Shown here: positions 591 through 63,792 of the stretch, piece by piece | Numbering within the stretch: the stretch's first letter is position 1 | Layout of the letters: every line of letters starts with the position of its first letter | Source of the DNA: an uncultured bacterium | GTDB taxonomy: Bacteria; Bacteroidota; Bacteroidia; Bacteroidales; CAIWKO01 | DNA length: 64,000 bases | NCBI GenBank assembly: GCA_903862465.1 | Contig: CAIOYH010000163.1 | Coordinates: forward strand, 7,289 to 71,288 | Direction: 5' to 3' | Position numbers and translations under genes: made by a program | Notes under the pieces: generated by a model | The model's database searches: none | Told to the model about the DNA's origin: nothing | What the model saw: the letters and a program-made list of their open reading frames with translations, nothing else

Positions 591-747
591 ATGTTGAGGT
601 GTGACATCTGTTTCGGGGATGTTAGTGCAGCGGGTAGTAATCTTTTTTAGGACTTACTGTTAGCAAGCTATCGTTTTTTTTTGTGCGTTAGATAGCGCAG
701 GTTACATGGATGAGTCCATTTATTTCCGATTTTGAATTCATGTTTTT

Positions 748-996
748 TAAGATTATATCGATATCTTTTAAGATTATATCGACATCTTTTAAGATTATAT
801 CGTCATCCTTTAAGAAGATATCGACATCTTTTAAGATTTCATCGACATCCATTAAGAAGATATCGACATCCTCTAAGATTATATCTACATCCTCTAAGAA
901 GATATCGACATCTTTTAAGATTATATCGACATCCTCTAAGAAGATATCGACATCTCTTAAGATTTCATTGACATCATCATAAAAGATAAGGACATC
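748..996. repeat. 21-bp tandem array #1, 11 full units plus a degenerate 12th (consensus TAAGATTATATCGACATCTTT)
   Basis: Unit starts counted at 748, 769, 790, ... 958, exactly 21 bp apart. Units alternate between AAGATTATATCG and AAGAAGATATCG variants. Confidence 0.95.
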
Positions 997-10910: not shown

Positions 10911-11264
10911 TCAACAAATTTCGGGAATACAACTGCCCACTTGTAATAACCATGTGGCTATAATGGGCAATATGAAATGGGTTGAAGGTTTGGGTTTCGG
11001 AGGTAGCTCTACCAAAAGAAGCAAATCGCCGCAGTGCATAAATTCGCCCGGCGATATTTGGAGCGTATTGGCTATAATCATCATCGTATCGAATTGGATG
11101 TTCATTTTTCCATGCTCTATCAAACTCAAATTCGAGCGAGGAATGCCCGAAAGCTCGCTAAAATGCTCTTGTGTGTACTTTTTATCACATCTTAGCTCAT
11201 AGAATCTGTTTCCATAAGCTATACTTTGCGTCGGAAACAGAATTGGTTTGCCGTTTCTTTCCAT
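10911..11264 (-). CDS. XRE-family helix-turn-helix transcriptional regulator (C-terminal part uncertain, possible frameshift)
   Basis: HTH_3-like core YELRCDKKYTQEHFSELSGIPRSNLSLIEHGKMNIQFDTMMIIANTLQISPGEF. The tail after PGEF looks unlike protein sequence, and another frame stays open down to 10795. Confidence 0.6.
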   Translation of the reverse strand: MERNGKPILFPTQSIAYGNRFYELRCDKKYTQEHFSELSGIPRSNLSLIEHGKMNIQFDTMMIIANTLQISPGEFMHCGDLLLLVELPPKPKPSTHFILPIIATWLLQVGSCIPEIC

Positions 11265-11486
11265 AATATGAATTTTAATTTAAAATGTTGCATATAAACA
11301 ACAAAGATTTTTGTTTTTGAATGAATATTATATATATTTTTGCAGGGTCAAAATTAGAAAAAATCTTTGAACTAAAAACGACATAAATAAAATTATTTTT
11401 GTTCTTTGAAACCCGTGTAAAAACACATTAAAGGTATGTGGCTTTCGCCTAAAATATTAGACGAAAAAGGCAACATAAATTGCATA

Positions 11487-11820
11487 TTAGGCTTCGGCAA
11501 GCAACTTAGGGGCTTCGGAGAGAGACTCAGAGGCTACTTCGAACGACTTAGTGGCTGTGGAGAGCGAATTAGAAGCTTCGGAGAGCGAATTAGCGACTGT
11601 GGCGAACGACTTAGCTGCTAAGGATAGAGAATTAGCGACTGCATCGAACGACTTAAAGGCTTAGGCGAGAGAATTAGCGACTGCGGCGAGAGAATAAGAG
11701 GCTGAGGAGAGAGAATCAGAGGCTGCGGCGAACGACTTAGGGGCTTCGGAGGGAGAATCAGAGGCTTCGGAGAGCGAATTAGAGGCTTCGGAGAGCGAAT
11801 TAGGGGAAGAATTGCCCTCC
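11487..11820. repeat. 21-bp tandem array #2, 16 units (consensus TTAGAGGCTTCGGAGAGCGAA)
   Basis: Unit starts at 11506, 11527, ... 11800, 21 bp apart; the first unit is 19 bp. Two interleaved unit subtypes end in GAGAGCGAA or CGAACGAC. Confidence 0.95.
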
Positions 11821-11933
11821 GAAATGAAACCGCCTCATAATGAAGCAATTTAATGTAGATAAAAGTGGGTTTATACGCAAAATGGAATTATCAATTAAAT
11901 AAAATAAATGTTTCACTAAAAAACCTAATTATT

Positions 11934-12548
11934 ATGAACACAATTAAATACAGTTATTCAAAACTAGCCCAAGGCACTTTTCTCGAAAAACTTGGCTTTA
12001 TTATTTTTTCATGTACCGACAACGTCAACTTCCCCACATTGGTCGTAACTGTTGCTCTTATTATTGCCAAAAAAGAAGCATACGAAGAGCAATTAGACAA
12101 GTCGAAAGCGGGAGATCATCAAGCCACCACCTTGGCTCGGAAATACAGAAAAGAATTGGAGTTGATGTTGAAAAAGAATGGAATCTACATCAATTTTACT
12201 GCCGATGGAGACATAACAAAGTTAATTTCTAGCGGTTATGATTTGGCTAAAATTCCGGTAAGAACACCTCGTCCGGAAATAGAAATATTGCCATCGTCGC
12301 AACGCGGTGTAGCAAAAGTTATCATTCAAAAAGGTGAAAAGGATGTTGCTTATCAAGTGGAAACACATGCCGACCCCATTCCACCTTTGCCTGCCGACCA
12401 ACGTTGGCAACGGCAACCTATGTGTACAAGACATTATCAATCCATTTCGGGGATTCCTGTTGACACAAATATGTGGTTACGCTATTATACGGTTTCTCCT
12501 GATGGCGAAATCGGACCAAAAGGACCCTTTAAATTCAAAATTTTATAA
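11934..12548 (+). CDS. Hypothetical protein: helical N-terminal part plus Fn3/Ig-like C-terminal domain (paralog of 49772..50434)
   Basis: ATG 11934 (MNTIKYSYSKL); the track start is the upstream GTG 11865. It shares an architecture with 49772..50434: ..SSGYDLAK / ..RNGYGVGK, then a Pro-containing linker, then beta-rich G.VAK.I..K..K.Y.V. Confidence 0.65.
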   Translation: MNTIKYSYSKLAQGTFLEKLGFIIFSCTDNVNFPTLVVTVALIIAKKEAYEEQLDKSKAGDHQATTLARKYRKELELMLKKNGIYINFTADGDITKLISSGYDLAKIPVRTPRPEIEILPSSQRGVAKVIIQKGEKDVAYQVETHADPIPPLPADQRWQRQPMCTRHYQSISGIPVDTNMWLRYYTVSPDGEIGPKGPFKFKIL

Positions 12549-12641
12549 GGGGGATTTGGAAGTTTTCCTTTAGGGGAAATTGTGGATTCATCAGGAAAAC
12601 ATAAAATGGTATCTTGATGATGAAAGATAAAACTATGAAAA

Positions 12642-12669
12642 AGCTTGCTCGAAAGGGTGAGCTTTTTTT
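12642..12669 (+). terminator. Candidate rho-independent terminator
   Basis: agcttgctc-GAAA-gggtgagct stem (9 bp including G-U pairs) with a GAAA tetraloop, then T7. Confidence 0.55.
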
Positions 12670-12785
12670 ATGGTTACATTGTTGGATGGTTCTATTGTTG
12701 TTGGTTTAGTAAAGGTGTTGTGGTTAGCACTTGTTTTTTTTGGCGTGTTGACTTTAACCTATAAAATTAATGGGTATGTTCAAAA

Positions 12786-27941: not shown

Positions 27942-28844
27942 ATGTTATTTGCCTCTATTGATATCGGAACAAACGCTGTTCGTTTGTTATTTTCAAATGT
28001 TTATCTTCGCGATGAACAAATTTATGCTGAAAAAGCTTCCATCATACGCATCCCGATACGTTTGGGCGAAGATGTTTTTTCTATAAACTATATTTCTGAA
28101 GAGAAAATAGACCTTTTATTAAAAACCATGCGTGCCTTTAAACTGTTGATGGATGTTTACCGACCTCTTTCCTACATAGCCTGCGCCACTGCTGCCATGC
28201 GTGAAGCTTCCAATAGCGATGAGGTGGTCAGAAGAATTAAAGAAGAAGTGGGTATTGACATCAAGGTGATTAGCGGCAAGGAAGAAGCCGACATCGTTAC
28301 GGCAAGCAATCATGTGGTTTTGAAAGAGCCATTTAAGTACAAAATGTATGTGGATGTGGGCGGCGGAAGCACCGAAATTTCGCTTTTAAATCATCAAGGG
28401 CTTGTAGCATCAAAATCGTTTAAAATCGGAACCATTCGCTATTTAAAAAATAAAATAGATGAAAAGGAATGGGCAAAGATGCAAGATTGGTTGCTTGAAT
28501 TTAAAAAGGACTTTGGCAAGATTTATTTGGTGGGTTCGGGCGGCAACATCAACAAAATAACCAAAATGTATGGCAACAGAGATGCTTTTATGATTGAAAA
28601 GGAAGAGTTGATGAAAGCCTATGAGCAATTGAGCAAATTGACTTTAGCCGACCGCATCGAAATGTTGGGTTTGCGTCCCGATAGAGCCGATGTTATTGTG
28701 CCTGCGGCTATTATATTTATCAAAATAATGACTTGGATACGGACAGAAGTTGTGTATGTGCCTAAAATCGGATTGGCAGATGGATTGATTTATAAAGGTT
28801 ACTACGAATATCTTAAAAATAGTCCGGTTGAAAAATTCTTTTAA
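27942..28844 (+). CDS. ppx: Ppx/GppA-family exopolyphosphatase
   Basis: MLFASIDIGTNAVRLLF, ATAAMREASN and VDVGGGSTEISL are ASKHA/Ppx-GppA motifs. The start lies 1 nt after the preceding stop. Confidence 0.85.
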   Translation: MLFASIDIGTNAVRLLFSNVYLRDEQIYAEKASIIRIPIRLGEDVFSINYISEEKIDLLLKTMRAFKLLMDVYRPLSYIACATAAMREASNSDEVVRRIKEEVGIDIKVISGKEEADIVTASNHVVLKEPFKYKMYVDVGGGSTEISLLNHQGLVASKSFKIGTIRYLKNKIDEKEWAKMQDWLLEFKKDFGKIYLVGSGGNINKITKMYGNRDAFMIEKEELMKAYEQLSKLTLADRIEMLGLRPDRADVIVPAAIIFIKIMTWIRTEVVYVPKIGLADGLIYKGYYEYLKNSPVEKFF

Positions 28845-29088
28845 TGGCACCACATGGATTCACAGCTATTCTACAGCCGTGTGTAAACGAGATATGTTCG
28901 GTATCAACTCCGAAACGCATGTCATCGTGCGTGCTCAATTCATCATCAGCTACGATGCGCCTTGGATTGGACAATATCGAACACCGTGAATGTATCCTAT
29001 TGGCGGATTTCGTTCCTATTACATTAGATGTACAAAAACGAATATACGGAACGGCGAAAAACACATCGAAGGTAGCTAAAAGCATGCC

Positions 29089-29352
29089 GGCTACGCCTAG
29101 GACCACAATGGCGACGCCCAGGACCACAATAGCGACGCCCAGGACCACAATGGCGACGCCCAGGACCACAATGGCGACGCCCAGGACCACAATGGCTACG
29201 CCTAGGACCACAATGGCGACGCCTAGGACCACAATGGCGACGCCCAGGACCACAATGGCGACACCCAGGACCACAATGGCGACACCTAGGACCACAATGG
29301 CTACGCCTAGGACCACAATTGTTACGCCTAGGACAACAATTGCTTTAGCTAG
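29089..29352. repeat. 21-bp tandem array #3, 12 near-identical units plus a partial unit (consensus GGCGACGCCCAGGACCACAAT)
   Basis: Unit starts at 29089, 29110, ... 29320, exactly 21 bp apart, with only 1-3 substitutions per unit. The array is visibly more GC-rich than its flanks and sits between convergent genes. Confidence 0.95.
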
Positions 29353-29515
29353 TATGGTTTTGACGACCTCCGATAAAATCTTGTCAACTTTGAATCAATT
29401 GTTTATGCAATTGTGATTTATCACTTTTCTTGTTATAAAGTCGAAGAGAATGAATTGGAATATAATCTGAAAGAACTATATATCTGAAGATTTATTCAAC
29501 TTTCGGTATTCCATA

Positions 29516-35054: not shown

Positions 35055-35495
35055 AAAGAATATATATTATAAATTATGGTTGCAAAAGTAATAGCGCAAT
35101 ATTACTTACATATTAAGGGAATATTATTTCTGTATTAAGAAATGAAAGATAAATAAGACTTGTCAAAAACAATCCCTCTAAATTAGTTCAAACTACAAAA
35201 AGATAAAAATGATTTACAAAAGCCATGAAAATACAATTACCTCGTTATATCCTTTAGGCTATAAATCTTTTTCAAATCATTAGTAAACTGGTTCGACTTA
35301 ATACTTTCAAGGGCTACCTTATAGGAGATTCAGATTTTGCTTGATTGTTGAATTGTTTTCCTACTGTATTCGAATACGTATATTATGTTTACAGACATAA
35401 AAAAGCCAATGTCACAATATAATTATATCTAAATATCTATATAACAAATATATATAATTGTATTGCAACTATTCATGACACTATTTCAACTTAAA

Positions 35496-35767
35496 ATAAT
35501 GCTATATTTGGTAGAGATACCACTATGATTGGTTGAAATAGTGCTATATTAGGTAGGAATAGTGCTATATTTGGTGGGAATAGTGCTATGGCGGCTAGAG
35601 ATAGTGCTATGGCGGCTAGAGATAGTGCTATGACGACTAGAGATAGTGCTATGACGACCAGAGATATCGCTATGCCGGTTAGATATACTGCTATGGAGAG
35701 AAAAATAGTACTATATTTGGTAGAAATAGTGCTATGGCAACTTGAGATAGTGCAATGCCGTGCCGAA
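35496..35767. repeat. 21-bp tandem array #4, 13 units (consensus ATAGTGCTATGGCGGCTAGAG)
   Basis: Unit starts at 35496, 35517, ... 35685, then 35705 (one 20-bp unit), 35726 and 35747. The central units are near-identical and the outer ones degenerate. Confidence 0.95.
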
Positions 35768-49771: not shown

Positions 49772-50434
49772 ATGACAGATATTAATACAGATATCTCAGT
49801 TGCTGCAGTGCAATTAGTTTCAAAGAGACCGGTGCATGTTGCAGACAACATTACAATTTTTAGTACTACTTTAGATAAATTGGAAAGCAGCGGCGACAAT
49901 CTTGTTAAGCCTGCTGACATGATTATTTATCGTGGTAACGTCACCACCTTAAGCACCTGTCAAGATGATATGAGAGGTGGTGCTGACGATAAAAAACCCA
50001 AGAGAGACAAAGCTTATAGCGTATGTTTTGGCGACAACCGGACGAATATGCTTAAAGTTGAAGGAGCCTTGATTGGCATACCTAACCCTATGGATAAGGA
50101 AGCCCTAATCTTGAGAAATGGTTATGGAGTGGGAAAAGAACATGGTCCGATATCCAATCCGGATATTAGCATAAAAAATAAGAAAAACCAACCGGGCACT
50201 GTTGTTGCTAAAATAAAAAGCCCTAGCAAGACCAAATCGTATTCTGTTGATTGGCAAAGCAGCACAGATAATGGTGAGACATGGACACCCCATAATTCTA
50301 CTCCTGTTTGTAAACGGGAACTAAAAAACATGCCTTTAGCTTCACAACTGATAGTGCGCGCTAGAATTACGATTGGAAGCAACGACCCTGAAGGTTGGAA
50401 AGTTTCTAGTACTTTAGTAGTAGGAGCAGTATAG
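49772..50434 (+). CDS. Hypothetical protein with an Fn3/Ig-like C-terminal domain (paralog of 11934..12548)
   Basis: Same layout as 11934..12548: helical N-terminal half, RNGYGVGK, then PGTVVAKIKSPSKTKSYSVDWQSSTDNGETW.. No signal peptide. Confidence 0.65.
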   Translation: MTDINTDISVAAVQLVSKRPVHVADNITIFSTTLDKLESSGDNLVKPADMIIYRGNVTTLSTCQDDMRGGADDKKPKRDKAYSVCFGDNRTNMLKVEGALIGIPNPMDKEALILRNGYGVGKEHGPISNPDISIKNKKNQPGTVVAKIKSPSKTKSYSVDWQSSTDNGETWTPHNSTPVCKRELKNMPLASQLIVRARITIGSNDPEGWKVSSTLVVGAV

Positions 50435-50522
50435 CAGCTTCATCGCTCTGTTTAACTTCTTAGATATAATTGTGGTAGGTGTTTCATAACGCGAAACACT
50501 TTCTTCCAATTATGGAAGAGCC

Positions 50523-50669
50523 GATTCCGTTCATGACGGGGAAGATTCCATTCGTGACGGAGCAGATTCCGTTCATGACGGGGAAGATTCCGTTCATGAC
50601 GGAGCAGATTCCATTAACGACGGAGCTGATTCCATCAACGACGGAGCTGATTCCATTCGTGACGGAGTA
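50523..50669. repeat. 21-bp tandem array #5, 7 units (consensus GATTCCGTTCATGACGGRGMA)
   Basis: Unit starts at 50523, 50544, ... 50649, 21 bp apart. Each unit contains the dyad ccgt-N5-acgg. Confidence 0.95.
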
Positions 50670-62387: not shown

Positions 62388-63512
62388 TTATTTACAATAT
62401 TGCTTCAGTTTCGCTTCCGCAAATTTGCTGCCCAACTCCGCCGCTTTTTTCCAATCGGCGCAGGCTCCGGGGAGGTCTTTCGCCGTATATTTCACATCCG
62501 CACGTTTCGTGTAGGCGCTCACATAGCTCGGATTTAGCTCTATCGCTTTCGTGAAATCCTCCAACGCCCCCGCCGTTTTACCCCCTTGTTCCTTACACAA
62601 AGCACGATTGAAATACGCTTTCGAATCTCCCGAATGCTTCAACAAAAATATCGTGTAGTCGCTCTCCGCATCCTCAAATTTCTTCATCTCATAACGCGTC
62701 AAACCTCTATTGTAATACGCATCCACATAATCTTTTTGTTTCGTGATAACCGTCGTGTAATCCGCCTCGGCGCTCACAAAATCCTTCATTTCAAACTCCG
62801 TGAACGCTTTGTTGTAATAGCTTTCCACATACGAAGGTTTAATCGCTATGGCGCTATCATAATCCTGCAACGCCTCCTTATATTTCTTCAGATGACTCTG
62901 CGCCATCCCGCGGCTGATATACGCGCGATAGTCCTTCGGCGCATTTTCAATCACGCGGTTGAAATCCCCTATCGCATCCTCATAATTACCCAAAATGCCA
63001 TACGCCATCCCGCGGTTATAATACGCATCATTATAATTCTTTTTCAGCGCTATCGCGTGCGTATAATCATCCACGGCGCCCGCATTGTCCTTCGCCAAAT
63101 ACTTAAGATAGCCCCTCGTGAAATACGCCCGTTCATTTTTGTTCGACAGGCGGATGGCGGTGTCGCAATCTGCCAACGCTTCCCTGTTTTTGTTCAGGTT
63201 CGTATAGGTGATGCCGCGGTTCGTATAAAACTCCGTCTCCTTATTGTTAAACTCTATCGCCGTATTGAAAAATTTCAGCGCCTCGCCGAAGTTCCCGATG
63301 GCATTATACGACAAAGCCTTGTAGAAATACGCATCCGCGAAATCCTTTTTCTGCCCTATCGTCTTGTCGAAATCCAGAATCGCATCCACAAAATACCCAT
63401 TTTTATACTTATCCAAACCCATCTTGAAACTCTCCATATAGGTTTGCCCCCAAGCGCTCCCCGTCATCAATCCCCACAACACAGCAAGGAAAATCGTTTT
63501 TTTCAACCGCAT
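62388..63512 (-). CDS. Secreted tetratricopeptide-repeat protein
   Basis: ATG 63512 gives MRLKKTIFLAVLWGLMTGSAWGQ. About nine TPR units (A..DY..AI...P.Y..AYYNRG). The C-terminal cap is CADWKKAAELGSKFAEAKLKQYC. Confidence 0.85.
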   Translation of the reverse strand: MRLKKTIFLAVLWGLMTGSAWGQTYMESFKMGLDKYKNGYFVDAILDFDKTIGQKKDFADAYFYKALSYNAIGNFGEALKFFNTAIEFNNKETEFYTNRGITYTNLNKNREALADCDTAIRLSNKNERAYFTRGYLKYLAKDNAGAVDDYTHAIALKKNYNDAYYNRGMAYGILGNYEDAIGDFNRVIENAPKDYRAYISRGMAQSHLKKYKEALQDYDSAIAIKPSYVESYYNKAFTEFEMKDFVSAEADYTTVITKQKDYVDAYYNRGLTRYEMKKFEDAESDYTIFLLKHSGDSKAYFNRALCKEQGGKTAGALEDFTKAIELNPSYVSAYTKRADVKYTAKDLPGACADWKKAAELGSKFAEAKLKQYCK

Positions 63513-63576
63513 AAATATTTTTTTGGCAAAGATAAACAACCTTGGGGAGATATACGACGTTTTCTTATGCTAAATC

Positions 63577-63792
63577 CCAAATACCAAGAACCAAATTCCA
63601 AATTCCAAAACCCAAATACCAAAACCCAAATACCAAATACCAAAAATTAAAACCCGCCCCCATATTCGTAACCTGTCCCGTACATGAAATGTCGGGATTC
63701 GCCCATTCGTAACCTGTCCCGTACATGAAATGTCGGGGTTCGTAGAGTGCAATCCTTGGAATTTGGATCTTGGATCTTGGAACTTGGATCTT
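63577..63792. repeat. Composite repeat: 10 tandem heptamers (CCAARNN), two 33-bp direct repeats, then about 5.5 heptamers in inverted orientation
   Basis: The left arm at 63577-63646 is 70 bp, exactly 10 units. DR1 at 63664-63696 and DR2 at 63705-63737 both read attcgtaacctgtcccgtacatgaaatgtcggg. The right arm at 63754-63792 is (TGGAWYT)n, the complement of the left-arm heptamer. Confidence 0.85.

What the first reader, a model, noticed from the sequence alone, without database searches (positions are those of the whole stretch)
11487..11820. 16-unit 21-bp array with two interleaved unit subtypes in the divergent region between an XRE regulator and an Fn3-like hypothetical gene
The units fall into two classes, ending in GAGAGCGAA or CGAACGAC. 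The classes tend to alternate in the middle of the array, giving a 42-bp higher-order structure. Most units contain CTTCGG or a related small dyad. The array fills most of the 670-bp gap between the divergently oriented HTH gene (10911..11264, minus) and 11934..12548 (plus). That is where the operators and promoters for both genes should be. It may be an operator array for the adjacent XRE protein, or a phase-variable spacer.
Basis: partly seen in the sequence, partly recalled or inferred. Interest (0 to 1): 0.6.

Follow-up and report, generated by a model that had tools for sequence, protein, structure and literature searches.

The report
Conserved non-coding 21-bp array before gene
A real array of fifteen 21-base repeats belongs to the gene downstream of it, not to the neighbouring XRE regulator; it encodes no protein, is stable in copy number and evolves under constraint, and relatives of that gene keep arrays of the same period and length but unrelated sequence, so it is probably an undescribed cis-acting control element.

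Summary
The array is real. It has 15 direct 21-bp units (11487-11801), and the "16th unit" is an inverted partial copy. Identity at lag 21 is 0.65 against about 0.25 at other lags, and shuffles give nothing. Two unit subtypes exist but alternate only partly. CTTCGG occurs in 6 of 16 units, and dyad symmetry is not above chance.

The array is not tied to the XRE gene. A 1.3-kb cassette (conserved promoter-like block, array, 204-aa Fn3-domain gene, terminator) recurs in relatives beside a LytTR gene instead. Four of five clades of this gene family carry a 13-16-unit, 21-bp array 57-160 bp upstream of the start codon, with four unrelated unit sequences.

Copy number is identical in four independent assemblies. 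It differs by one unit across 37% synonymous divergence. No frame is open in the window, and neither unit variation nor substitutions follow codon phase. The array nevertheless evolves at half the neutral rate. Every consensus Bacteroidetes -7 box on the gene's strand lies upstream of the array, so it probably sits in a long 5' leader.

Best reading: a constrained, non-coding, phased multi-site platform serving the downstream gene. The binding partner and the function are inferred, not shown. Within this window, tandem arrays occur only at period 21.

The parts
10911..11264 (-). XRE-type HTH gene (117 aa). It is a neighbour only and not part of the cassette.
   Evidence: Pfam HTH_3 E 1.3e-9. 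It is present only in the window lineage among loci that carry the homologous array.
11335..11342 (+). Bacteroidetes-type -7 box TATTTTTG, with TTTG 21 bp upstream. Candidate promoter of the cassette.
   Evidence: Motif scan. The motif definition TAnnTTTG comes from my own knowledge of Bacteroidetes promoters.
11349..11356 (-). -7 box TAATTTTG on the minus strand. Candidate promoter of the XRE gene, 130 bp outside the array.
11343..12705 (+). Cassette shared with L005 and L013: conserved upstream block, array, 204-aa gene, terminator and a 16-bp tandem.
   Evidence: blastn finds 11343-12586 plus 12655-12705 homologous to L013 4444-5654/5707-5742 and to L005 437-1622/1675-1722. The flanks are unrelated.
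11393..11425 (+). Strongly conserved block ATTTTTGTTCTTTGAAAnCnnTnTAAAAACA, which includes a second -7 box (11394-11401).
   Evidence: Alignments A1 and A3.
11487..11801 (+). 15 direct 21-bp units. Skeleton: TTAG...CT..G..GAG...A.
11760..11801 (+). Units 14 and 15 are identical. This is a one-unit duplication specific to the window lineage.
   Evidence: L005 and L013 both lack exactly one unit here. Units are listed.
11802..11823 (+). Inverted partial unit. Arms 11787-11796 and 11814-11823 form an inverted repeat at the gene-proximal end of the array.
   Evidence: An inverted unit fragment in the spacer scores p = 0.027 here, 0.087 in L015 and <0.004 in L019, but none is found in L006 or L013.
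11934..12548 (+). 204-aa gene: N-terminal helical domain with no known relatives, plus a C-terminal Fn3 domain. It is the only gene always linked to the array.
12647..12669 (+). Intrinsic-terminator-like hairpin plus T run that closes the cassette.
   Evidence: Equivalent hairpins are present in L005 and L013.

Best explanation
The array is a non-coding cis element that belongs to the downstream 204-aa Fn3-domain gene. Together with that gene's promoter-like block and terminator it forms a 1.3-kb cassette.

It most likely lies between the cassette promoter (-7 boxes at 11335 and 11394) and the start codon, so it would be transcribed as part of a leader of roughly 500 nt. I propose that it is a phased multi-site docking platform: 15 asymmetric sites spaced exactly two helical turns apart, capped by an inverted partial site. 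In this model it is bound cooperatively by a sequence-specific factor that co-evolves with it. The product of the linked gene is the prime candidate. Binding would set or buffer expression of that gene, in the way iteron or centromere-like arrays act with their cognate proteins.

Shown: the array is linked to the gene and not to the XRE gene; its copy number is stable; it is not coding; it is under nucleotide-level constraint; clades keep the period, length and position while the unit sequence is replaced.

Inferred: that the array is transcribed; that a protein binds it; which protein that is; and whether the target is DNA or the RNA copy.
For: (1) Linkage. The homologous array and gene occur without the XRE gene in L005 and L013. 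Homology starts at 11343.

(2) Recurrence. Four of five clades of the gene family (44-91% amino-acid identity) have a 13-16-unit, 21-bp array ending 57-160 bp before the ATG, with four unrelated unit sequences. These are the window/L005/L013 clade, L006/L012, L015-18 and L019. No other such array occurs in about 38 kb of flanking locus DNA. My rough binomial estimate is p about 1e-3.

(3) Constraint. Window versus L005, the array differs at 58 of 315 sites (0.18). Four-fold sites of the adjacent gene differ at 0.37 (Fisher p = 0.001) and the upstream spacer at 0.31 (p = 0.003). Array GC is 0.53 against 0.24 in the flanks, and all clades have arrays richer in GC than their flanks.

(4) Not coding. 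All six frames carry stops in the window. The frame that is open in L005 has lost its start and gained 2 stops here, and it carries TAG in most L013 units. Substitutions fall 17/24/17 by phase, against 12/7/53 in the gene. pN/pS is 1.5-2.1 in that frame. Unit variation shows no period of 3 (p = 0.28), unlike array 29089 (p = 0.005).

(5) Position. Exact TAnnTTTG boxes on the gene's strand lie upstream of the array in all 6 array-bearing loci and never between the array and the ATG.

(6) Site-like architecture. The units are asymmetric. An inverted unit fragment follows the array in 3 of 4 clades (Fisher-combined p about 0.002, my arithmetic).

(7) A second, distant member of the same protein superfamily in the window (49772-50434; E 2.6e-8) also abuts a 21-bp array (50518-50667).
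Against: There is no direct evidence of binding or of transcription.

The 204-aa protein has no recognisable DNA- or RNA-binding domain: Pfam, NCBIfam and PHROGs give nothing, and its C-terminus is an ordinary Fn3 domain.

Conserved positions within units are scattered and partly lineage-specific, so no contiguous core motif emerges.

One clade (L021 = L014) has the gene without an array.

Four other 21-bp arrays in the window sit in unrelated contexts, one of them probably coding. The 21-bp period may therefore reflect a lineage-wide mutational habit rather than selection on helical phasing.

The inverted fragment is absent in L006 and degraded in L013 and L001-4.

The promoter assignment rests on an 8-mer motif only.

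The constraint estimate comes from a single pair of lineages.
Confidence: 0.4

Rival explanations
1. Neutral minisatellite. This lineage produces 21-bp (and 7-bp) tandem duplications through some replication or repair bias. The array merely persists in the upstream region of the gene and has no function.
For: Periodic segments in the 64-kb window occur only at lag 21: six segments at lag 21, none at the other lags from 12 to 33 apart from one at lag 14 that comes from 7-mers. The arrays have unrelated sequences and contexts, including a site between convergent genes. Higher-order periods of 42, 63 and 84 bp and the concerted change in L013 are typical of unequal exchange. No conserved core motif is seen. 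One clade lacks the array.
Against: The array diverges at half the neutral rate (p = 0.001-0.003). It stays GC-rich in AT-rich spacer DNA. An array of 13-16 units sits at the same position in 4 of 5 clades whose proteins are only 44-55% identical. That is far beyond the time a neutral array would be expected to survive without collapsing or decaying (inference).
Confidence: 0.2
2. Remnant of a small heptad-repeat protein gene. The array was, and in relatives still is, the first gene of a two-gene operon encoding a protein of about 100 aa with 7-residue repeats. In the window lineage it is a pseudogene.
For: 21 bp equals 7 codons. L005 has an intact 115-aa ORF with a TTG start (LPSASDLEAK...ANDL...ERE...). 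Plus-strand frames are open through the arrays of L012, L015 and L019. Gene callers found upstream ORFs of 105 aa and at least 54 aa ending 22 bp before homologues P0005 and P0006. The promoter boxes lie upstream of the array. The array is richer in GC than the flanks. Array 29089 shows that 21-bp arrays can be coding in this genome.
Against: The frame that is open differs between the homologous arrays: frame A in L005, frame B without a start in L013, and none in the window. pN/pS is 1.5-2.1 in frame A and no lower than 0.5 in any frame. No third-position excess appears in substitutions or in unit variation in any clade. The non-repeat tail differs only by non-synonymous changes (read directly). 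A search of 5.8 billion proteins with the L005 ORF found nothing, although the bias filter may be the cause.
Confidence: 0.13
3. RNA-level element. The repeats act in the 5' leader transcript as a multi-site sponge or platform for an RNA-binding protein or sRNA, or as a modulator of leader stability and translation.
For: The promoter boxes lie upstream of the array in all six loci. Strand asymmetry is strong and conserved in the window clade, with 61-64% purine on the sense strand. Constraint acts equally on all three codon phases.
Against: The array folds no better than shuffles (z = 0.13 sense, +1.5 antisense). It has no Rfam match. No motif or strand bias is shared between clades: the sense strand is 33% purine in L019.
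Confidence: 0.12
4. Operator array for the adjacent XRE protein.
For: A small divergent XRE gene recurs upstream of this gene family in three clades: the window, L015-18 and L021-23. In L015 the units contain an 11-bp palindrome, GTTKCCGMAAC (dyad test p = 0.02).
Against: The same homologous array sits beside a LytTR gene and no XRE in L005 and L013. The target units have no dyad symmetry (p = 0.8). The three XRE proteins are only 26-34% identical to one another. The L021 clade has an XRE but no array. The XRE promoter box lies outside the array.
Confidence: 0.07
5. Phase-variable or contingency spacer whose unit number tunes expression.
For: It is a tandem repeat lying between a likely promoter and a start codon. 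One unit was gained in the window lineage.
Against: The units are about 68% alike, which disfavours slippage. Unit number is identical in four independent assemblies at 96-98% identity to the window, and the P0003-type array has the same number in three assemblies. Only one indel separates lineages that differ at 37% of synonymous sites.
Confidence: 0.04

Closest known systems
Iterons with an inverted-repeat operator in theta-replicating plasmids (pPS10, F, P1, R6K); recalled from my own knowledge
   Same: Asymmetric direct repeats are phased at about two helical turns directly upstream of one gene. An inverted partial repeat follows them next to that gene. The repeat sequence differs between lineages while the architecture stays the same.
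   Different: There are 13-16 units here rather than 3-9. The context is chromosomal. The linked protein has no Rep or winged-helix signature and ends in an Fn3 domain. I saw no DnaA boxes on reading the gap. The array appears to lie downstream of the promoter.
Binding sites of LytTR regulators (AgrA, ComE, PlnC: 9-bp direct repeats with 12-bp spacers, so a 21-bp period); recalled from my own knowledge
   Same: Direct repeats have a 21-bp period. A LytTR gene lies immediately upstream of the array in L005, L013 and L019.
   Different: Known sites are pairs, not 15 copies. The units have no contiguous 9-bp conserved core. tblastn finds no LytTR gene in the 64-kb window.
Repeat rheostats in 5' regions of contingency genes (for example the 7-bp repeats upstream of Haemophilus influenzae hmw1A/hmw2A); recalled from my own knowledge
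   Same: Tandem repeats lie between a promoter and a start codon.
   Different: The units here have diverged, and no copy-number polymorphism is seen.
Bacterial intergenic minisatellites (mycobacterial MIRU/VNTR) and cyanobacterial heptamer STRR repeats; recalled from my own knowledge
   Same: These are intergenic arrays whose unit length is a multiple of 3 or 7, with ORF-like open frames and unknown function. 7-bp arrays are also common in these contigs.
   Different: Each locus here has its own unit sequence, so this is not a dispersed family. There is no 7-bp substructure (lag-7 identity 0.24). The association with one gene family has no counterpart that I know of.

Membership tests
XRE (dimeric HTH) operator array | Dyad-symmetric half-sites in each unit | tested here: not met
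   The best dyad score is no better than in column-permuted units (p = 0.78-0.86). CTTCGG occurs in 6 of 16 units.
XRE (dimeric HTH) operator array | The array co-occurs with the regulator gene in relatives | tested here: not met
   The homologous array in L005 and L013 lies beside a LytTR gene and no XRE. An XRE without an array occurs in L021.
XRE (dimeric HTH) operator array | The protein binds the repeats | not testable with these tools
   This needs EMSA or footprinting.
Phase-variable repeat (contingency locus) | Near-identical units that are prone to slippage | tested here: not met
   Units match at 68%.
Phase-variable repeat (contingency locus) | Copy-number differences among close strains | tested here: not met
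   The window and four assemblies at 96-98% identity all carry 16 units. Short-read assemblies could hide minority variants.
Plasmid-type iterons plus Rep | Asymmetric direct repeats of 17-22 bp phased at about 21-22 bp | tested here: met
Plasmid-type iterons plus Rep | Inverted partial repeat between the array and the gene | tested here: inconclusive
   Present in the window (p = 0.027), L015 (0.087) and L019 (<0.004). Absent in L006 and L013.
Plasmid-type iterons plus Rep | The adjacent gene encodes a Rep-family initiator | tested here: not met
   No Pfam, NCBIfam or PHROG family matches at a meaningful score. The fold is a helical domain plus Fn3.
Plasmid-type iterons plus Rep | Replicon context (plasmid or mobile element, DnaA boxes, AT-rich unwinding region) | tested here: inconclusive
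   An AT-rich flank is present (GC 0.24). The context is chromosomal, with housekeeping genes nearby. I saw no DnaA box on reading the gap.
LytTR binding-site array | Direct repeats with a 21-bp period | tested here: met
LytTR binding-site array | Contiguous conserved core of about 9 bp plus a variable spacer of about 12 bp | tested here: not met
   Conserved positions are scattered: 0-3, 7-8, 11, 14-16 and 19.
LytTR binding-site array | Cognate LytTR regulator nearby | tested here: inconclusive
   A LytTR gene is adjacent in L005, L013 and L019. None is found in the window by tblastn.
Protein-coding heptad repeat | An intact reading frame through the array | tested here: not met
   All six frames carry stops in the window. 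The open frame is not the same among the homologous arrays.
Protein-coding heptad repeat | Codon-phase signature (third-position excess, pN/pS below 1) | tested here: not met
   Substitutions fall 17/24/17 by phase. pN/pS is 0.5-2.1. Permutation tests give p = 0.28-0.87.
Structured RNA or known RNA family | Significant fold or an Rfam match | tested here: not met
   z = 0.13 and +1.5. Rfam gives no match.
Intrinsically curved DNA | Predicted curvature above that of same-composition periodic controls | tested here: not met
   Two wedge models give fractions of 0.49-0.66 for the target. The model parameters were entered from memory, so this is a weak test.

The most novel reading that the evidence does not exclude
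A previously undescribed class of cis element: a track of about 300 bp made of 13-16 units phased at exactly 21 bp. In this reading its period, length and position upstream of a widespread Fn3-domain gene family (about 205 aa, roughly 2,000 clusters) are conserved, while its sequence is freely replaced. That would imply a co-evolving protein-track pair, or a structure-reading mechanism, that is not an iteron, a CRISPR array, an operator or a contingency repeat. It may be one face of a lineage-wide system that builds or uses 21-bp arrays.
Probability: 0.25. Interest if true: 0.8.

Novelty: new variant of a known kind. Interest (0 to 1): 0.6.

Why it matters
If the array is functional, it is an example of a bacterial control element that keeps its geometry (period, unit number, distance to the gene) while its sequence is replaced. 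Motif-based annotation cannot detect an element of that kind.

It would also give a first handle on a large, wholly uncharacterised family of small Fn3-domain proteins: about 2,000 clusters at 50% identity, with an N-terminal domain that has no known relative.

The finding that this window forms tandem arrays only at 21 bp raises a separate, testable question about how such arrays are generated or selected in these freshwater Bacteroidota.

Tried and rejected
- Structured RNA: the array folds no better than shuffles on either strand, and Rfam gives no match.
- tRNA or tmRNA: none found.
- Intrinsic curvature: no excess under two wedge models (parameters entered from memory).
- Dyad symmetry or CTTCGG as an operator half-site: not above chance.
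- OmpR-type half-site substructure or 7-bp substructure: identity at lags 7, 10, 11 and 14 is at background.
- Contiguous LytTR-like 9-bp core: not seen.
- Paralogues of the 204-aa gene next to the other arrays: a plain phmmer search found none. A broad profile found one distant member at 49772-50434.
- Phage or viral origin: no relative of the protein in IMG/VR. Seven of 42 superfamily members hit a PHROG annotated as major tail protein; I did not check which part of the proteins matched. Ten members examined individually gave nothing.
- Homologues of the L005 repeat ORF: none found, possibly because of the composition filter.
- An apparent array downstream of the gene in L014: this was an artefact of a run of N.
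- Low divergence of the array between the window and L001-4: this is not evidence of constraint, because the adjacent gene is equally similar there (0.8% against 1.2%).
- Literature searches for 21-bp tandem arrays in Bacteroidetes: nothing relevant.
- DNA for homologues P0002, P0005, P0006 and P0007 was not available. Exact look-ups for the genes next to arrays 35494 and 50518 found nothing.

Full report
**1. The observation**

The sequence at 11487-11822 is a genuine tandem array. TRF reports period 21, 15.0 copies and 68% matches at 11489-11803, with higher-order periods of 42 and 63. Base identity at lag 21 is 0.65 and at lag 42 is 0.71, against 0.17-0.33 at all lags from 1 to 29. A shuffled window gives no periodic segment.

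Written in register, there are 15 direct units. Ten end in GAGAG(C/A)GAA-like sequence and four, or five counting unit 1, end in CGAACGAC. Their order is BABAABABAAABAAA, so alternation is partial. It is cleaner in a homologous array elsewhere, which makes a 42-bp dimer look ancestral.

Three details of the finding need correction.
- The "16th unit" (11802-11822) is an inverted partial copy. It forms an inverted repeat with the last unit (11787-11796 / 11814-11823).
- CTTCGG occurs in 6 of 16 units.
- The units have no more dyad symmetry than column-permuted controls (p = 0.78-0.86).

**2. Surroundings**

The left neighbour, 10911-11264 (minus strand), is a 117-aa HTH_3/XRE protein. Beyond it lies an OmpR-type response regulator. 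The right neighbour, 11934-12548 (plus strand), has no Pfam match, and a MarC gene follows it. Large proteins with type IX secretion (T9SS) sorting domains mark the organism as a member of the Bacteroidota. No Rfam family and no tRNA is present in the window.

An AlphaFold model of the 204-aa protein (pLDDT 67) shows an N-terminal helical domain and a C-terminal beta sandwich. The sandwich matches Fn3 domains weakly. A profile of 42 superfamily members hits solved Fn3 domains only over positions 114-205, and distant members pass Pfam's fn3 threshold. The N-terminal domain has no known relative.

**3. The array travels with the downstream gene, not with the XRE gene**

The exact 204-aa protein is encoded on four metagenome contigs (L001-L004) that are 96-98% identical to the window. 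All have the same 670-bp gap and the same 16 units, with 4 substitutions in 334 bp.

A 91%-identical homologue (L005) and a 90%-identical one in the MAG AlinenLipids_bin-6511 (L013) carry the homologous array. It aligns unit for unit with the window's array and has exactly one unit fewer. The extra unit in the window is one of two identical neighbours (units 14 and 15), so it is a recent duplication.

Homology between the window and these loci covers only 11343-12586 plus 12655-12705. That stretch contains a conserved upstream block, the array, the gene, a terminator and a short 16-bp tandem. To the left of this cassette the window has the XRE gene, whereas L005 and L013 have a LytTR gene in the same orientation.

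**4. The association is older than the sequence**

A profile search raised the close family to 20 proteins. Upstream DNA was obtainable for five clades.
- The window clade has the array described above.
- The P0003 clade (44% identity; L006-8, L011, L012) has 13-15 units of ACAAAGAATCTCTTCAAAGTG, organised in 63-bp triplets.
- The P0014 clade (55%; L015-18) has 14 units of ATGTTKCCGMAACTCAGAGCT, next to a divergent 83-aa XRE gene.
- The P0010 clade (50%; L019/20) has a degenerate array of about 13 units (lag-21 identity up to 0.61), next to a LytTR gene.
- The P0012 clade (L021-23, identical to L014) has a divergent XRE gene but no clear array.

So four of five clades have a 21-bp array of 13-16 units ending 57-160 bp before the ATG, and the four unit sequences are unrelated. 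The same lag scan found no other array in about 38 kb of flanking locus DNA, and four others in the 64-kb window. I estimate roughly one array per 4-5 kb of intergenic DNA. On that basis, four of five would arise by chance with a probability of about 1e-3 (my arithmetic).

**5. Not a protein-coding repeat**

Because 21 bp is seven codons, I tested coding in several ways.
- In the window, all six frames through the array contain stops.
- The frame that forms an intact 115-aa ORF in L005 has here lost its TTG start (now TAG) and gained two stops. In L013 the same frame has TAG in most units. L013 is open in a different frame that lacks a start.
- Between the window and L005 the adjacent gene shows the expected codon signature: 12/7/53 differences by position, and 0.37 at four-fold sites. 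The array shows 17/24/17.
- pN/pS is 1.5-2.1 in the L005-open frame and never below about 0.5 in any frame.
- Variation among units has no period of 3 in the target, L005, L013, L006, L015 or L019 (p = 0.28-0.87).
- As a positive control, another array in the window (29089-29340) varies only at third codon positions (p = 0.005).

**6. Constrained nevertheless**

Window versus L005, the array differs at 58 of 315 aligned sites (0.18). That is half the rate at four-fold sites of the neighbouring gene (0.37; Fisher p = 0.001) and well below the upstream spacer (0.31; p = 0.003), but above the gene as a whole (0.12). The three phase classes differ at 0.16-0.23, all well below that rate, which points to a constraint on the nucleic acid itself.

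The array holds a GC content of 0.53 inside spacer DNA of 0.24. Arrays are richer in GC than their flanks in every clade.

The low divergence between the window and L001-4 is not informative, because the neighbouring gene is just as similar there.

In L013 the units have changed in concert (GGAGAGCGAA to GTAGAGATAC in nearly every unit, in the same register). Homogenisation therefore does occur over longer times.

**7. Where the promoters are**

I scanned for the Bacteroidetes -7 consensus TAnnTTTG (a motif taken from my own knowledge). The window has plus-strand boxes at 11335 (with TTTG 21 bp upstream) and 11394, and a minus-strand box at 11356 that suits the XRE gene. There is none inside the array and none between the array and the ATG.

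The same holds in all six array-bearing loci. Exact boxes on the gene's strand lie upstream of the array and never in the spacer between array and ATG.

By this motif evidence alone, the array lies in a transcribed leader of about 500 nt, and the XRE promoter lies 130 bp outside the array.

**8. What it is not**

- The array does not fold better than shuffled sequence on either strand (z = 0.13 and +1.5).
- It is not predicted to be unusually curved (model parameters entered from memory).
- It has no internal 7-, 10- or 11-bp substructure.
- It has no contiguous conserved core. Conserved positions are scattered as TTAG...CT..G..GAG...A..

**9. What it most likely is**

The element keeps its period, unit number and position, while its sequence is replaced clade by clade. 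It is asymmetric, phased at two helical turns and under nucleotide-level constraint. In three of four clades it is followed by an inverted fragment of its own unit (combined p about 0.002, my arithmetic).

The closest working analogy is an iteron or centromere-like platform: many phased sites for one sequence-specific protein that co-evolves with them, plus an inverted site that serves autoregulation. The only gene always linked to the array is the 204-aa gene, so its product (pI 9.2) is the prime candidate partner.

A second, distant member of the same superfamily in the window (49772-50434; E 2.6e-8 with a 155-sequence profile) also abuts a 21-bp array (50518-50667). I take this as modest support.

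This mechanism is inferred and I give it 0.4. Membership in the iteron/Rep family is not claimed. The protein shows no Rep signature and the context is chromosomal.

The main rivals are:
- a neutral minisatellite produced by a lineage-specific 21-bp duplication habit (0.2);
- a decayed heptad-repeat gene (0.13);
- an RNA-level role of the leader (0.12).

**10. Wider context and novelty**

The protein belongs to a superfamily with 2,065 clusters at 50% identity (E up to 1e-3), nearly all about 205 aa and unnamed.

Within the 64-kb window, periodic segments exist only at lag 21 among lags 12-33, apart from a lag-14 signal caused by 7-mers.

I found no description of such arrays in the searchable literature.

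I rate the finding as a new variant of a known kind (bacterial phased direct-repeat arrays and minisatellites), with a real chance that it is something not yet described.

Noticed in passing
window 745-975, 29089-29340, 35494-35736, 50518-50667: There are four more tandem arrays of exactly 21 bp, with unrelated unit sequences (11, 12, 11.6 and 7 units). In a scan of lags 12-33 the window shows periodic segments only at lag 21, apart from one lag-14 signal caused by 7-mers.
   Followed up: partly
window 29089-29340 (ORF 28844-29416 +, or 28813-29316 -): Every variable site in this array is a third codon position of the plus frame (MATPRTT x12) and of the minus frame (IVVLGVA x12); permutation p = 0.005. 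It is probably coding. The plus ORF starts on the last base of the stop codon of the Ppx/GppA gene.
   Followed up: partly
window 35494-35736: The units share a conserved dyad, ATAGTGCTAT (p = 0.007). The edge units contain TATATTTG, a Bacteroidetes -7 box, and the last one lies 73 bp before the ATG of a T9SS cargo gene (35785).
   Followed up: partly
window 49772-50434 (+): This 220-aa ORF is a distant member of the same Fn3 superfamily as 11934-12548 (hmmsearch E 2.6e-8 with a 155-sequence profile; hhalign E 0.0017). It ends 84 bp before the 21-bp array at 50518-50667.
   Followed up: partly
window 63572-63792: 7-bp arrays (AAATACC x10 and CTTGGAT x5) flank a 41-bp direct repeat present twice (63664-63742). 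Each copy carries a hairpin, CCCGTACAT...ATGTCGGG, which looks REP-like. 7-bp arrays are also frequent in the related contigs L006 and L012.
   Followed up: no
L006 7414-7451: By rotation, (TGGTCAT)n is the same unit as the cyanobacterial STRR2 heptamer TTGGTCA (recalled from memory). This may be coincidence.
   Followed up: no
window 62658-62678 (-): A solitary 21-mer, TTTGAGGATGCGGAGAGCGAC, matches the array unit with 2 mismatches, where shuffles give none. It lies inside a TPR-repeat gene and is probably a chance similarity at the codon level.
   Followed up: partly
L015 3577-3870: In the P0014 clade each 21-bp unit carries an 11-bp palindrome, GTTKCCGMAAC. Paired changes (G..C to T..A) preserve the symmetry. 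A divergent 83-aa XRE gene lies next to this array, so the XRE-operator idea is more credible there than in the window.
   Followed up: partly
L015 1-2690: Large ankyrin-repeat and leucine-rich-repeat genes lie beside the cassette in the P0014 clade. Such genes are typical of host-associated bacteria.
   Followed up: no
Protein family of window 11934-12548: The superfamily has 2,065 clusters at 50% identity. Nearly all members are about 205 aa and unnamed. They have a true Fn3 C-terminal domain and an N-terminal helical domain of about 110 aa with no relative in Pfam, the PDB or NCBIfam. Seven of 42 members hit a PHROG annotated as major tail protein.
   Followed up: partly
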